This document shows, piece after piece, positions 685-38,242 of a stretch of DNA of 47,744 nucleotides. The notes below the pieces were generated by a model. It saw only the letters and a program-made list of their open reading frames with translations, searched no databases and was not told the DNA's origin. Each line of letters opens with the position of its first letter. The first letter of the stretch is position 1. The position numbers were made by a program, and so were the translations under genes. Source of the stretch: an uncultured Methanosarcinales archaeon (GTDB lineage Archaea > Nanobdellota > Nanobdellia > Woesearchaeales > DSVV01); assembly GCA_964593285.1 (NCBI GenBank), contig CAZQHZ010000011.1, forward strand, positions 1-47,744, in the 5' to 3' direction.

Positions 685-1908
685 ATGAATGAAAATTTGA
701 AAAAAAAGAATGTTGGTATTGAAATATTAGCTCCTGCTGGAAATTATGAAATGCTTCATACTGCTATTAATAGTGGCTGTGATTCTATTTATTTTGGAAT
801 AGCAGGGTTTAATTTGAGGGCAAATGCTAAAAATTTTTCAATTGATGAAATTTCTAAAGTAATTAAAATTTGTCATCAAAAATCTATTAAAGCTTATGCA
901 TGTTTAAATATTGTAATTTTTGAAGATGAATTAGATTTTTTAAAAAAAGTTTTGGATGTATTATCTAAATGCAAAGTTGATGGTGTTATTTGCTGGGATT
1001 TTGCTGTTATTAGTATAGCTTTAAAAAAAGGATTAAATGTTCATTTATCAACACAAGCTAGTGTTTTAAACTCAATTTCTATAAAAGAATATGAAAAATT
1101 AGGTGTTTCAAGAATTATTTTAGCAAGAGAGTGTAGTTTAACTGATATAAAAAAAATACAAGAAAAAACGAATTTAGAACTTGAAATTTTTATCCATGGT
1201 GCAATGTGTGTTGCAGTTTCTGGAAGATGTTTTATTTCACAATATTTGTATGGGAAAAGTGCTAATAGGGGAGAGTGTATTCAACCTTGCAGAAGATCGT
1301 ACGATTTAATAGACCCAGAAACTAGTAAAGAATTAAATATTACTGAAAATTACGTTATGTCACCAAAGGATTTGTGTACTATTGATATTATTGATAAGTT
1401 ATTAGAATTAGATGTTAAATGTTTTAAAATTGAAGGACGAAATAGATCGCCTGAATATTTAAAAAAAACAATTGAGTGTTATAAAAAAGCAATTGAATTT
1501 TATAAAAAAGGAATATTGACTGAAAATGTTAAATTAAAGCTTAAAGAAGAATTATCTATGGTTTATAATCGAGGATTTTCTACTGGATTTTTTTTATCTA
1601 AACCAATAAATGAATGGACTGATAGTTATGGTAATAAATCAAATTATGTAAAAAAATATGTTGGAAGAATTCTTAATTATTATAAAAAAATAAATGTTGC
1701 AGAAGTTAAACTTGAAACAGAAAACTTAAATTTAAATGATAAACTAATTATTACTGGAAATAAGACTGGTTGTGTTGATTTTACTTTAAAATCTATACAA
1801 TTTAATAAAAAAGAAATAAATTGTGGGCTTAAAGGTCAAAATGTTGCAATTAAAGTTCCTTTTGTTGTTAGAAAGAATGATAAAGTATTCATTTTTACAA
1901 AAAAATAG
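685..1908 (+). CDS. U32 family protein (TrhP/RlhA-like Fe-S hydroxylase, often annotated as collagenase-like peptidase)
   Basis: EILAPAG, LSTQ, HGAMCVAVSGRC, NRGECIQPCR, SPKDLC and KIEGR motifs; C-terminal beta-barrel. Confidence 0.9.
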   Translation: MNENLKKKNVGIEILAPAGNYEMLHTAINSGCDSIYFGIAGFNLRANAKNFSIDEISKVIKICHQKSIKAYACLNIVIFEDELDFLKKVLDVLSKCKVDGVICWDFAVISIALKKGLNVHLSTQASVLNSISIKEYEKLGVSRIILARECSLTDIKKIQEKTNLELEIFIHGAMCVAVSGRCFISQYLYGKSANRGECIQPCRRSYDLIDPETSKELNITENYVMSPKDLCTIDIIDKLLELDVKCFKIEGRNRSPEYLKKTIECYKKAIEFYKKGILTENVKLKLKEELSMVYNRGFSTGFFLSKPINEWTDSYGNKSNYVKKYVGRILNYYKKINVAEVKLETENLNLNDKLIITGNKTGCVDFTLKSIQFNKKEINCGLKGQNVAIKVPFVVRKNDKVFIFTKK

Positions 1909-1910
1909 TA

Positions 1911-2126
1911 AGTATAAAGGCAGGTATAAAAAAAGGCAATATCTTCAAAACTTTCTATGATTTTATTAAAGGTTCTGCGTTCCCATATGGAGTTCTATTA
2001 CTAGCGTTCGGAAGTTTATAATCTTACGAGATTATAAACCAACCCCTCGCGAAGGAACTATATTTTTTGTTATAATAAAGTTTTGACCGTATGATATTGC
2101 CTTTTTTCAAATATAGACTTTATACT
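1911..2126 (-). ncRNA. Candidate structured non-coding RNA (long interrupted stem with multibranch apex); family unknown
   Basis: Nested inverted repeats 1911-1919/2118-2126, 1929-1943/2093-2107 and 1945-1954/2077-2086; internal 11-bp hairpin 2014-2039; GC-enriched core; GNRA-type loops on the minus strand. Confidence 0.55.
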
Positions 2127-2175
2127 GACAAAAAATAAAAAAATATTTAAATAATTAAAATAAAAAAATGTTAAA

Positions 2176-15827: not shown

Positions 15828-16613
15828 TTAAATTATTTTTTTTAATTCTTCTTTAAATGATTTTAAATTAAAATGTCTTGCAAGTGTTTTTATGACTTCT
15901 TTGTACTCAATTTCATTAGAAAGTAATGGTAGCATATCTTCTTGCCATCTTTTATGAAGTTTTTTAGCTTTATTAAACATTTTTATAATATCAAAATCAT
16001 ATCCTGATAATTTACATTTTTCTTTTGCTAATTTTAAATCTAATTTTTGGTTTGATTTAATTATCATATATATATCAAAATGATCTCTTGGTTTATTTCG
16101 CCCTATTGTTGCAGCAAGTTTTTCTGCAAACATTTCTTTTTTTGAAAGGGTATTTACATAAAAATTGGGAATAAATTCATTATAAAAATGAGAAACATTA
16201 TGAATTTTGGGTTTTTCTAAAAGTTTTGATCTTTTATTAAGGTCTATAAATATTGTATCTTGTTTATCATCAAAATTTGTATAATGAAATATAAGTCTTA
16301 TAAAACCTTCAACATTTTTATCTTCTCTAACATGTTTAAAAAAGTTTGAGTTAAGTAATATTTTTGTAATTTCTTTTTTAAGTTCATCTATGTTTCTTGT
16401 AATAGTATAATCTATATCTTCACTTAATCTTGAATAATTAAGAAACAATTTTTGAAGTGCAGTTCCTCCTTTAAAATAAATTCCTTTAACATCTTTTAGC
16501 AGATAAAGAATTATTGTTATATAATAATCTTTAGCTAACATATTTCTATTAAATGTATATTGTGATGAGATATGAGTAAATTCGTCATTAGTTAATCTTT
16601 TGATTTTATCCAT
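15828..16613 (-). CDS. abiEii: AbiEii/AbiGii nucleotidyltransferase toxin (type IV TA)
   Basis: KDY, FKGGTAL, RLSEDIDY, AEKL and RNKPRDHFD motifs. Confidence 0.9.
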   Translation of the reverse strand: MDKIKRLTNDEFTHISSQYTFNRNMLAKDYYITIILYLLKDVKGIYFKGGTALQKLFLNYSRLSEDIDYTITRNIDELKKEITKILLNSNFFKHVREDKNVEGFIRLIFHYTNFDDKQDTIFIDLNKRSKLLEKPKIHNVSHFYNEFIPNFYVNTLSKKEMFAEKLAATIGRNKPRDHFDIYMIIKSNQKLDLKLAKEKCKLSGYDFDIIKMFNKAKKLHKRWQEDMLPLLSNEIEYKEVIKTLARHFNLKSFKEELKKII

Positions 16614-17092
16614 TTTTTTATATATTCTTTAGGAAATATCTTAAAAGAATGACCTTTTATTTTTTCAGTTATAAAATTGTTTACTTTATTTTTAGTTGAT
16701 CTATGGAATATGAATCTGTTGTTAAGAATTATAAATTTACCTTGTTTTTTTGTTGTCCATATATCTATTTGCATGGGTATTTGATTTGTAAGTTTGTAGT
16801 AATTTGCTGCAGCCCATCCACCAATAACATAGTCTTTGCTATTAAGTATTTCATCTGCAATTATGAATGGGTGTTCAGTCCATTTCCCTGATTTTGCTTT
16901 AATTGGTATTAGGTAATATTTATTTTTATTGAGCTTAATAATACGCTTTTTTTGTATAAGATTTTTTATAATGTTATATCTTTGAGTTTTATTTTCTGTA
17001 AATTTTTCAATATTTTCTGTTTTGAAAAAATAATTTTGATTAAATTCAAGACTAGATATAATTTCAATTTCTTTTTTTGAAAGTCCTTTCAT
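16592..17092 (-). CDS. abiEi: AbiEi-family antitoxin/transcriptional regulator (type IV TA)
   Basis: N-terminal wHTH; YVIGGWAAANYYKLTNQIP motif; overlaps the toxin start. Confidence 0.85.
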   Translation of the reverse strand: MKGLSKKEIEIISSLEFNQNYFFKTENIEKFTENKTQRYNIIKNLIQKKRIIKLNKNKYYLIPIKAKSGKWTEHPFIIADEILNSKDYVIGGWAAANYYKLTNQIPMQIDIWTTKKQGKFIILNNRFIFHRSTKNKVNNFITEKIKGHSFKIFPKEYIKKWIKSKD

Positions 17093-34158: not shown

Positions 34159-35124
34159 ATGGTACAAAATACTGCTTTAAATTTAGAAAAAATAATTGAT
34201 TTTCAAGATGCATATAATAGAAAGCACACTATTTCAGATGATCAAAGACCATATCAAAAAGATAAAGAGCAATATACTCATGAAAGTCACTCTCAAATTA
34301 ATTCTGTTTTAAATGGTATGTTAGACTATCTTCCAAAAGAGCAACATAATTCTTTTATTGAAATGTATAATAAGTCTGATGAAAATCAAAAGCAATTATT
34401 AATTTCGTTATATTCAAATATGCAAAAAGATATATGTATAGACCATTTGACAAATTTACCTAATAGAAAATGTTTTGATAAAGATTTAAGTCAAAAAATT
34501 GAAAGTGTTAATCGTGATAAAAATAAACAACTAAATTTATTGACTTTAGACATTGATTATTTTAAGCAAATAAATGATACCTATGGGCATGATTTTGGTG
34601 ATTTTGTTTTAAAAAAATGTGGAGAATATCTTAAAAAAAATATTAGGGAATCAGATAATGCATATAGGCTTGGTGGAGAAGAATTTTCTTTATTATTAGA
34701 TTCTAATATAGAAAATAAAATTGATTTTAATGATTATTTTAATAATAGAATTACTGGTGTTTCAGATTATATAATAAATGAAATTAAATTAGAAAAAGGT
34801 GCTTTAAACAAAAAAATTAAGGATTTAAAAAGTTCAAATGCAGATTTATCAAATTTAAATGGTAATTTATCAAAGTTAAAAATTTTTAATAAATATTTAA
34901 TAAATTTAAAAAAATTTGAAAATAAAATTAATGAAGGTAGTTATTCAAGAATTAATAAGGATAAAAATGATCCATATATTACTTTTAGTGTTGGTTCATC
35001 TGTTTATAATAAATCTTTAAATAATGAAAATTATTCAAAAAGCCCAGGTGAATTAATTAATCGTGCAGATCAAGCTTTATATATTGCAAAAGCTAATGGA
35101 AGAAATAAAATTTGTTATAAATAA
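34159..35124 (+). CDS. GGDEF-domain protein (putative diguanylate cyclase)
   Basis: DHLTNLPNR, DIDYFKQINDTYGHDFGD, RESD-NAYRL-GGEEF, TFSVG and ADQALYIAKANGRN motifs. Confidence 0.93.
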   Translation: MVQNTALNLEKIIDFQDAYNRKHTISDDQRPYQKDKEQYTHESHSQINSVLNGMLDYLPKEQHNSFIEMYNKSDENQKQLLISLYSNMQKDICIDHLTNLPNRKCFDKDLSQKIESVNRDKNKQLNLLTLDIDYFKQINDTYGHDFGDFVLKKCGEYLKKNIRESDNAYRLGGEEFSLLLDSNIENKIDFNDYFNNRITGVSDYIINEIKLEKGALNKKIKDLKSSNADLSNLNGNLSKLKIFNKYLINLKKFENKINEGSYSRINKDKNDPYITFSVGSSVYNKSLNNENYSKSPGELINRADQALYIAKANGRNKICYK

Positions 35125-38120: not shown

Positions 38121-38242
38121 GCCCTGGTAGTGTAGTTCGGCCTAGCATGAAGCCCTGTCGAGGCTTCGACCCGGGTTCAAATTCCATTATTTCAGTCTCT
38201 TTTTTTAAAAAGGGACGTGGTATGAAAGTCCCGGCCAGGGCG
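38121..38242 (+). tRNA. tRNA-Asp(GTC) with a 47-nt intron in the T-loop (38182-38228, position 59/60)
   Basis: Acceptor GCCCTGG/CCAGGGC; anticodon arm AAGCC-CTGTCGA-GGCTT; T-stem CCGGG/CCCGG split by an insert with BHB-like geometry. Confidence 0.9.

What the first reader, a model, noticed from the sequence alone, without database searches (positions are those of the whole stretch)
1911..2126. Unassigned ~215-nt rod-shaped structured RNA with a multibranch, GNRA-rich apex
Seen: this intergenic stretch is markedly more GC-rich than neighbouring spacers and folds on itself through nested complements: AGTATAAAG/CTTTATACT (1911-1919/2118-2126), AAAAAAGGCAATATC/GATATTGCCTTTTTT (1929-1943/2093-2107), TCAAAACTTT/AAAGTTTTGA (1945-1954/2077-2086) and GTTC/GAAC (1972-1975/2055-2058). 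The apex holds several hairpins. On the minus strand they read CUUC-GCGA-GGGG, an 11-bp stem (2014-2039), CUA-GUAA-UAG and UCC-AUAU-GGG. A TATA-like TTTAAATA lies about 20-25 nt upstream on the minus strand. I could not find the SRP helix-8 motif, RNase P GAGGAAAGUCC, 5S rRNA or common riboswitch cores. Inference: an independently transcribed, possibly undescribed archaeal ncRNA, or a highly divergent SRP/6S-like RNA. It lies convergent with a U32 RNA-hydroxylase-like gene.
Basis: partly seen in the sequence, partly recalled or inferred. Interest (0 to 1): 0.8.

Follow-up and report, generated by a model that had tools for sequence, protein, structure and literature searches.

The report
Miniature transposon with conserved folded cargo
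This is not a single-copy RNA gene but a small jumping DNA element; its inside is a strongly conserved folded structure, not found in the RNA family library, that related archaea carry between the ends of several unrelated transposon types, and what it does is open.

Summary
The stems are real (z = -6.3), but the unit is a 222-bp MITE (1908-2129): 14-bp GTAA-type terminal repeats, an exact 8-bp target duplication, 10 copies in the genome. Single-ORF IS66 elements of the same order have matching ends and 8-bp duplications but lack the interior. Canonical SRP and RNase P RNAs lie elsewhere; Rfam has no hit. The GNRA-rich apex is a 47-bp lineage-specific insert, and the TATA lies outside the element. 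The interesting part is a ~120-nt internal module found in 34 of 151 genomes of the order. Its helices covary (19 of 31 pairs). Its apex shows three-way T-A/T to C-G/C covariation typical of base triples. It sits between IS66-type ends (8-bp duplication), IS5-like ends (9 bp) and a third type (3 bp), switching at least 5 times on a short tree. Best reading: an ordinary transposition mechanism carrying an undescribed folded single strand, more likely DNA than RNA. Function untested; no RNA run was listed.

The parts
1908..2129 (.). 222-bp MITE (type II, IS66-type ends)
   Evidence: Boundaries from 6 aligned young copies at 92-95% identity for the four full-length siblings
1900..1907 (.). Left copy of the 8-bp target-site duplication
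   Evidence: Identical to 2130-2137
2130..2137 (.). Right copy of the 8-bp target-site duplication
1908..1921 (+). Left terminal inverted repeat, 14 bp, starts GTAA; its first G completes the U32 stop codon
   Evidence: 12 of 14 complementary here, 14 of 14 in five siblings; ORF ends at 1908
2116..2129 (-). Right terminal inverted repeat
1934..2102 (+). Conserved structured module (model R1 match, 70.5 bits)
1929..1954 (+). 5' arms of helices A and B with the 1-nt side (T1944) of the conserved 1 x 6 bulge
2077..2107 (+). 3' arms of helices B and A with the 6-nt bulge (2087-2092)
1955..1971 (+). 5' strand of the large central loop (about 17 nt, length conserved, sequence loose)
2059..2076 (+). 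3' strand of the central loop; same loose consensus as the 5' strand, read in the same direction
1972..1992 (+). Apex 5' half: helix C (1972-1975), helix D (1976-1979), 3-bp hairpin 1981-1983/1989-1991 with a 5-nt loop; this copy has lost the loop G found in most relatives
1993..2039 (+).
   Evidence: Absent from the C3 copy and old copies; joint skipping it in run X1; other inserts
2040..2058 (+). Apex 3' half: C-tract with the inferred third strand (2045-2047), 3' arms of helices D and C
   Evidence: Three-way covariation; the triple is inferred, not shown
685..1908 (+). Upstream gene, U32 family (PF01136; best NCBIfam TrhP, below cut-off); the insertion turned a TAA stop into TAG and left the protein unchanged
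2146..2153 (+). TATA-like octamer outside the element; more likely the promoter of the gene starting at 2176
   Evidence: Position; function inferred

Best explanation
The window holds a decaying copy of a non-autonomous IS66-type MITE. Shown: 14-bp terminal repeats, 8-bp target duplications, dispersed copies, and autonomous single-ORF IS66 elements with matching ends in the same order. Inferred: such a transposase, acting in trans and now missing from this assembly, made the copies. The interior is not a deleted IS66. It is a separate ~120-nt module that folds back as a single strand into three helices, a 1 x 6 bulge, a two-fold symmetric 17 x 17 loop and an apex probably locked by 2-3 pyrimidine-type base triples (covariation shown, 3-D fold inferred). 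Mechanism I commit to: the module works as folded single-stranded DNA that serves its own spread. Fold-back brings the two ends together, so an IS end captured on one arm can be copied to the other by template switching, which gives a new MITE for that transposase family. The conserved apex and loop are a binding site for a protein acting on single-stranded DNA (a priming or HUH-type factor). These last steps are inference. Odds: MITE 0.97; module under selection as a folded strand about 0.85; DNA rather than RNA about 0.55 of that.
For: Exact 8-bp duplication in 5 of 6 young copies, 1 mismatch in the sixth; background 0.067% exact among 331,883 AT-rich pairs. IS66 transposase in 50 of 401 genomes; 7 of 30 such loci are whole elements with 13-14-bp GTA ends and exact 8-bp duplications, three of these ends shared with module MITEs and L197 matching ours at 12 of 14 by eye; L197 passes the NCBIfam IS66 cut-off. 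No module in 72 transposase loci. Helices: 97.3% of cells paired, 19 of 31 pairs with two-sided change, score 0.488 against 0.147 shuffled and at most 0.083 slid. Triples in 61 unique model-found apexes: T-A/T 27 and C-G/C 23 at one site, C-G/C 50 and T-A/T 6 at the next, C-G/C 57 at the third; 15 of 17 independent pairs change together. This is mirror covariation, which copying between inverted arms cannot produce. For DNA: G-T pairs (12) are no commoner than A-C (10) among 1057 helix cells; loop G and A of a GNA motif are kept in 58 and 57 of 61 (GNA loops as stable DNA hairpins is recalled); no orientation bias to neighbouring genes (24 vs 27 read-through cases).
Against: No IS66 transposase in G000 (95.9% complete), and no empty-site allele was listed, so current mobility is not shown. 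Only 94 of 195 modules with enough flank had a scorable end plus duplication. Template switching alone can explain covariation in helices A and B and the rarity of wobble pairs. The 46 rows of A1 were chosen by a fixed pattern and a pairing-based parse, which inflates pairing. A local antiparallel pairing (60-71, 61-70, 62-69) is a weaker but open alternative to the triple: 62/69 complementary in 43 of 61 against 57 of 61 for 60/69. The second G-A of each proposed tandem is weak (12 and 9 of 46). The complement of the apical loop reads UNCG, an RNA-type loop. No partner protein was found. PMC5737381 (passages) says ssDNA and RNA motifs are hard to tell apart computationally.
Confidence: 0.5

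Rival explanations
1. Same MITE, but the module acts as RNA: read-through or internal transcription gives a rod with a triple-helix apex that stops nucleases or polymerase, is processed, or binds a host protein (6S-like bubble mimic, small ribozyme), making insertions harmless or useful.
For: Base triples, conserved bulges and two insert-tolerant sites (linker and apical loop) are typical of structured RNAs. G-T closes helix ends on the plus strand (38 G-T vs 3 A-C in the apex; the parse allowed G-T, so this is biased). In G000 the upstream gene reads into the plus strand in 8 of 11 copies. MITE transcripts with conserved folds are known (bcr1; PMC3184786, passages).
Against: No orientation bias over 63 classed loci in other genomes. 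Wobble pairs are scarce inside helices. 117 of 151 genomes of the order have no match, so it is not a core RNA. No conserved promoter was seen inside the element (alignments; not scanned separately).
Confidence: 0.3
2. The module is a REP/REPIN-like substrate of an HUH (Y1) nuclease that spreads it through single-stranded intermediates; DDE ends are later captures.
For: Copies without scorable ends or duplication exist: 8 of 9 in G146 (always behind a second rod) and 4 of 4 fetched from G030. Y1 transposases occur in 7 of 10 module-rich genomes. IS200/IS605 ends use ssDNA hairpins and base triples (PMC6006769, passages). Small hairpin motifs like the one in the insert flank some Y1 genes (by eye).
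Against: No module beside any of 13 Y1 loci; no REPtron-like arrangement. G000's only Y1 match is split in two frames.
Confidence: 0.12
3. The module is a neutral passenger; its covariation comes from copying between inverted arms and shared descent.
For: G-T and A-C mismatches are equally rare. Old copies in G000 decay freely. Trees are short and the apex could recombine as a block, overstating independence.
Against: Arm-to-arm copying would erase the bulges and cannot give mirror three-way covariation at two sites. Loop lengths and the 1 x 6 bulge persist (66 of 111 parses exactly 1 x 6).
Confidence: 0.07
4. A single-copy, independently transcribed host ncRNA or a divergent SRP/RNase P/6S RNA.
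For: Stable rod and a large central bubble, as in 6S RNA (resemblance recalled).
Against: 10 copies with target duplications; canonical SRP and RNase P RNAs elsewhere; no shared flanking gene; patchy distribution.
Confidence: 0.01

Closest known systems
Type II prokaryotic MITEs (similarity to the parent IS confined to the terminal repeats; PMC10969869, passages)
   Same: Under 500 bp, short terminal repeats, flanking direct repeats, AT-rich intergenic sites, stable fold, ends shared with an autonomous IS.
   Different: One conserved interior is shared by MITEs with unrelated end types; I found no such case in the papers searched.
IS66 family, single-ORF ISBst12 group (PMC11946415 and PMC12898284, passages)
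   Same: Ends start GTA(A), 8-bp duplication, about 14-bp repeats; partners encode one 430-460-aa transposase.
   Different: The window element encodes nothing, and the autonomous elements lack the module.
bcr1 of Bacillus cereus, and NEMIS/ERIC repeats (PMC3184786, passages)
   Same: Small mobile repeats with a stable fold; bcr1 keeps its fold by compensatory changes.
   Different: No sequence relation was tested; those are described as transcribed, with one end type each; no tertiary covariation is mentioned in the passages seen.
REP/REPIN and IS200/IS605 ends (PMC6006769, passages)
   Same: Folded single-stranded DNA with hairpins, bulges and base triples; modular pairs and tandem rods.
   Different: Most scorable copies here have DDE-type ends and duplications; no module lies beside a Y1 gene.
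6S RNA; SRP RNA
   Same: Long rod with a large central bubble (6S) or bulged helix (SRP); both resemblances recalled.
   Different: No Rfam match; multicopy and mobile; the host has its own SRP RNA.

Membership tests
MITE (type II) | Terminal inverted repeats | tested here: met
   14 of 14 in five siblings, 12 of 14 in the window copy
MITE (type II) | Target-site duplication | tested here: met
   Exact 8 bp in 5 of 6 young copies, including this one
MITE (type II) | Multiple dispersed copies, no transposase gene, under 500 bp | tested here: met
   10 copies of 175-222 bp; no ORF of 60 aa or more
MITE (type II) | Similarity to the autonomous element confined to the ends | tested here: met
   Ends match, module absent from the IS66 loci scanned
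MITE (type II) | Mobilised in trans by the cognate transposase | not testable with these tools
   No PF03050 in G000; needs a transposition assay
IS66 family ends | Ends begin GTAA and insertion duplicates 8 bp | tested here: met
   family features from PMC11946415 and PMC12898284 passages
IS66 family (autonomous) | Encodes a DDE_Tnp_IS66 transposase | tested here: not met
Archaeal SRP RNA | Scores on RF01857; single copy | tested here: not met
   No hit here; the real one is at G000:C14:6608-6880, 147.7 bits
Archaeal RNase P RNA | Scores on RF00373 | tested here: not met
   No hit here; the real one is at G000:C2:90693-91017, 108.5 bits
6S RNA | Rfam match | tested here: not met
6S RNA | Binds RNA polymerase through an open-bubble mimic | not testable with these tools
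   A 17 x 17 loop of conserved length exists; binding untested
REP/REPIN | Copies flank a TnpA-REP (Y1 HUH) gene | tested here: not met
   0 matches in 13 Y1 loci from 7 genomes
REP/REPIN | Cut as ssDNA by a Y1 nuclease | not testable with these tools
   Needs protein and assay
Functional structured nucleic acid | Covarying helices | tested here: met
   with the selection caveat given in the report
Functional structured nucleic acid | Expressed as RNA | tested here: inconclusive
   No RNA holder listed

The most novel reading that the evidence does not exclude
A new class of selfish folded element: an end-less ~120-nt single-stranded DNA or RNA structure with an intramolecular triple helix and its own activity, which repeatedly acquires the terminal repeats of unrelated transposases (IS66-type, IS5-like, and one or two more) and spreads with whichever enzyme a host has. 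It would be a transposase-independent cargo that hijacks IS ends, unlike MITEs that arise by deletion of one parent.
Probability: 0.4. Interest if true: 0.85.

Novelty: new variant of a known kind. Interest (0 to 1): 0.62.

Why it matters
The origin of type II MITE interiors is usually unexplained. Here one interior is conserved across many families of an archaeal order, carries a tertiary-structure signature, and changes transposase partner. That gives a small, synthesizable object on which to test whether MITE interiors are under selection for their own function, whether natural single-stranded DNA uses triple helices, and how new MITE families form. For annotation, it warns that such rods in these small archaea are mobile repeats, not ncRNA genes. 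The window copy itself is an ordinary, partly decayed insertion that left its neighbour gene intact.

Tried and rejected
Rfam: whole window at gathering score gave only a tRNA; the region at E up to 10 gave one 13.7-bit chance hit; 40 relative loci gave only neighbouring tRNAs and a sub-threshold miRNA hairpin. Expression: no RNA holder listed; this is no evidence either way. Empty-site allele: none listed in 4 DNA runs of contigs. Viruses: 0 matches with two patterns. A gene travelling with the module: none shared beyond host genes. IS1595 as partner of the GG-type ends: 1 of 201 genomes, no matching ends. Y1 transposase association: none. Guide-like pairing between the two loop strands: no consistent helix in a column scan; guide matches to target flanks were only looked at by eye and not seen. 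SRP helix 8, HDV-like and hammerhead ribozymes, group II intron domain 5, K-turn, box C/D and attC were compared by eye from recall and dropped because the defining bases were not conserved; none was tested by a call beyond Rfam. Earlier findings of this scan: nothing in three look-ups. The third end type (GA.., 3-bp TTA/TAA; 3 cases) and a possible fourth (TG.., 8 bp, one exact case) were not tied to a transposase.

Full report
Observation. The four nested complements and the 11-bp stem are exact at the stated coordinates. The region folds better than all 200 shuffles on each strand (z -6.34 and -5.56) and is GC-richer than its spacers (31% against 9.5% and 2%). Rfam has no match at the gathering score or at E up to 10, apart from one 13.7-bit chance hit. 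The genome is archaeal by its genes (ZPR1), 1.18 Mb and 95.9% complete. Relatives found by pattern are labelled Woesearchaeota, Nanoarchaeota or 'archaeon' in most of the 80 titles shown; 26 titles say Methanosarcinales, a label I do not trust for these records and do not use.

It is a MITE. The genome holds five full 222-bp copies, one 175-bp copy lacking 47 internal bases, and four old diverged copies; the covariance model finds the same 10, and an eleventh left end abuts an assembly gap. The ends are 14-bp inverted repeats starting GTAA. An 8-bp target duplication is exact in 5 of the 6 young copies, including the window copy (1900-1907 and 2130-2137), and has one mismatch in the sixth; cross-pairs differ at 2-7 positions and the background for an exact match is 0.067% of 331,883 AT-rich pairs. 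Of the four old copies two have one mismatch and two have none recognisable. In two DNA runs the summed contig depth over the element is several to twenty times that of the flanks (the tool warns this is no copy number). The insertion fell in the U32 gene's stop codon and turned TAA into TAG without changing the protein. SRP and RNase P RNAs are present elsewhere above their cut-offs. The TATA-like octamer is outside the element and fits the next gene.

The mover. GTAA ends with 8-bp repeats are IS66 features (PMC11946415, passages); the single-ORF ISBst12 group has similar short ends (PMC12898284, passages). G000 has no IS66 transposase, but 50 of 401 genomes of the order do. Of 30 such loci, 7 are whole 1.5-1.6-kb elements with 13-14-bp GTA ends and exact 8-bp duplications. 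Their ends match those of module-carrying MITEs, and L197 matches the window family at 12 of 14 bases by eye; its protein passes the NCBIfam IS66 cut-off. None carries the interior. So this is a type II MITE as defined in PMC10969869 (passages). Mobilisation in trans is inferred.

The interior is a conserved module. A model built from 46 non-redundant copies matched 34 of 151 genomes of the order, often at 10 to 24 or more copies. In a phylum sample, 19 of 151 matched, all in the same order; how many outside genomes were in that sample is not shown. The module is helix A, a 1 x 6 bulge, helix B, a loop of about 17 x 17 nt, helix C, and an apex. Of 31 pairs, 19 show two-sided change, 97.3% of cells pair, and the score is 0.488 against 0.147 for shuffles and at most 0.083 for slid partners. 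Caveat: these 46 rows were picked from 111 parses by a fixed core pattern and a pairing-based parse, so the 7 invariant apex pairs say nothing and the pairing is inflated. The two loop strands share one loose consensus in the same direction; a G opposite A recurs at both ends (23 and 25 of 46), but the second G-A of a tandem is weak (12 and 9 of 46).

The apex shows tertiary covariation. Of 91 modules found by the model rather than the pattern, 13 with inserts and 9 that did not parse were left out, leaving 61 unique apexes. A 3-bp hairpin covaries with a downstream pyrimidine tract in parallel register: T-A with T 27 times and C-G with C 23 times at one site (11 other), C-G with C 50 and T-A with T 6 at the next (5 other), C-G with C 57 at the third. 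On a tree built with the apex masked, 15 of 17 independent pairs that differ at the first site change together (82 apexes, short alignment, mosaic inheritance possible). These are the isosteric triples of a pyrimidine-type triple helix (recalled); the complementary strand could form the purine-type equivalent. Copying between inverted arms gives reverse complements, not mirror changes, so this points to selection on a fold. An antiparallel alternative fits less well (43 of 61 against 57 of 61) but is not excluded. Unrelated hairpin inserts fall in the linker before the third strand in six genomes, including the window's 47 bp, or in the apical loop in others (read by eye).

The module changes ends. 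Of 195 unique modules with enough flank, 46 have GT ends with 8-bp duplications, 34 have GG ends with 9 bp, 3 have GA ends with 3 bp, 11 have other calls and 101 have none scorable. Two autonomous 0.9-kb elements (L446, L453) among 30 loci have GG ends like the second class and 9-bp duplications with one mismatch; they encode DDE_Tnp_1 proteins closest to IS5 but below the NCBIfam cut-off. On a tree of 64 module interiors, end type needs 13 changes where 2 is the minimum; well-supported branches force at least 5, and none of 200 bootstrap trees allows one (only 94 columns, bootstrap not settled). Some copies lack ends altogether, and some elements hold two modules in inverted order.

DNA or RNA. 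For DNA: G-T is no commoner than A-C inside helices (12 and 10 of 1057 cells), the apical loop keeps a GNA motif, and orientation to neighbouring genes is even (16 ++, 19 --, 20 divergent, 8 convergent among 63 of 88 loci). For RNA: triples and expansion sites are RNA-like, the loop's complement reads UNCG, G-T closes helix ends on the plus strand, and 8 of 11 G000 copies lie downstream of a plus-sense gene. No RNA run was listed. PMC5737381 (passages) notes that the two are hard to separate computationally, and PMC2864571 (passages) uses wobble pairs and loop types as I did. I put DNA slightly ahead.

Literature. Eight searches listed no paper describing this module; the library lacks most subscription journals. 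PMC11602168 (passages) reports a Woesearchaea genome with 105 candidate MITEs per Mb, so these elements may be catalogued there; its supplement could not be read. PMC3184786 and PMC6006769 were read as passages only. Names of IS subgroups beyond those cited, DNA mini-hairpin stability and triple geometry are recalled. The tallies include genomes marked unpublished (G144, G393; G336; G144, G155; G155); no conclusion depends on them.

Verdict. The window feature is an IS66-type MITE, a known kind. Its interior is an apparently undescribed, widely shared, folded module with probable base triples that has moved between unrelated transposon ends. Interest 0.62.

Noticed in passing
G000:C6:21555-21678 (minus): A left end of the old subfamily runs into an assembly gap; it could hide another MITE or a full-length element.
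   Followed up: partly
L476-L483 (G146): A second, unrelated ~95-nt rod with its own inverted arms precedes every end-less module copy, once in tandem; no target duplication found.
   Followed up: partly
L215 (G419:C56:16923-17362): A ~280-bp insert of two repeated multi-hairpin units sits in the module's apical loop.
   Followed up: no
L059, L071, L083, L259, L351: About 300-bp elements with IS66-type ends; several hold two modules in inverted order.
   Followed up: partly
Left arm of GG-type MITEs (e.g. L051, L070, L229) and window 1998-2010: A small recurring hairpin motif, also seen near some Y1 transposase genes; it looks like a separate ssDNA unit.
   Followed up: partly
L485-L488 (G030): End-less, strongly diverged module copies that keep the fold; possible domestication.
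   Followed up: no
G000:C35:3836-4101: IS200-type Y1 transposase gene split between two frames.
   Followed up: no
window 38125-38197: ARAGORN calls a tRNA-Asp here that the Rfam scan at gathering score did not list.
   Followed up: no
window 15828-17092 (minus): Two-gene pair that looks like a type IV AbiE-like toxin-antitoxin system (nucleotidyltransferase plus regulator); from the translation only.
   Followed up: no
window 34159-35124 (plus): A GGDEF-like protein, unusual in archaea; from the translation only.
   Followed up: no
G000, several contigs: Many tRNA genes are called with introns (13 of 32 by ARAGORN).
   Followed up: no
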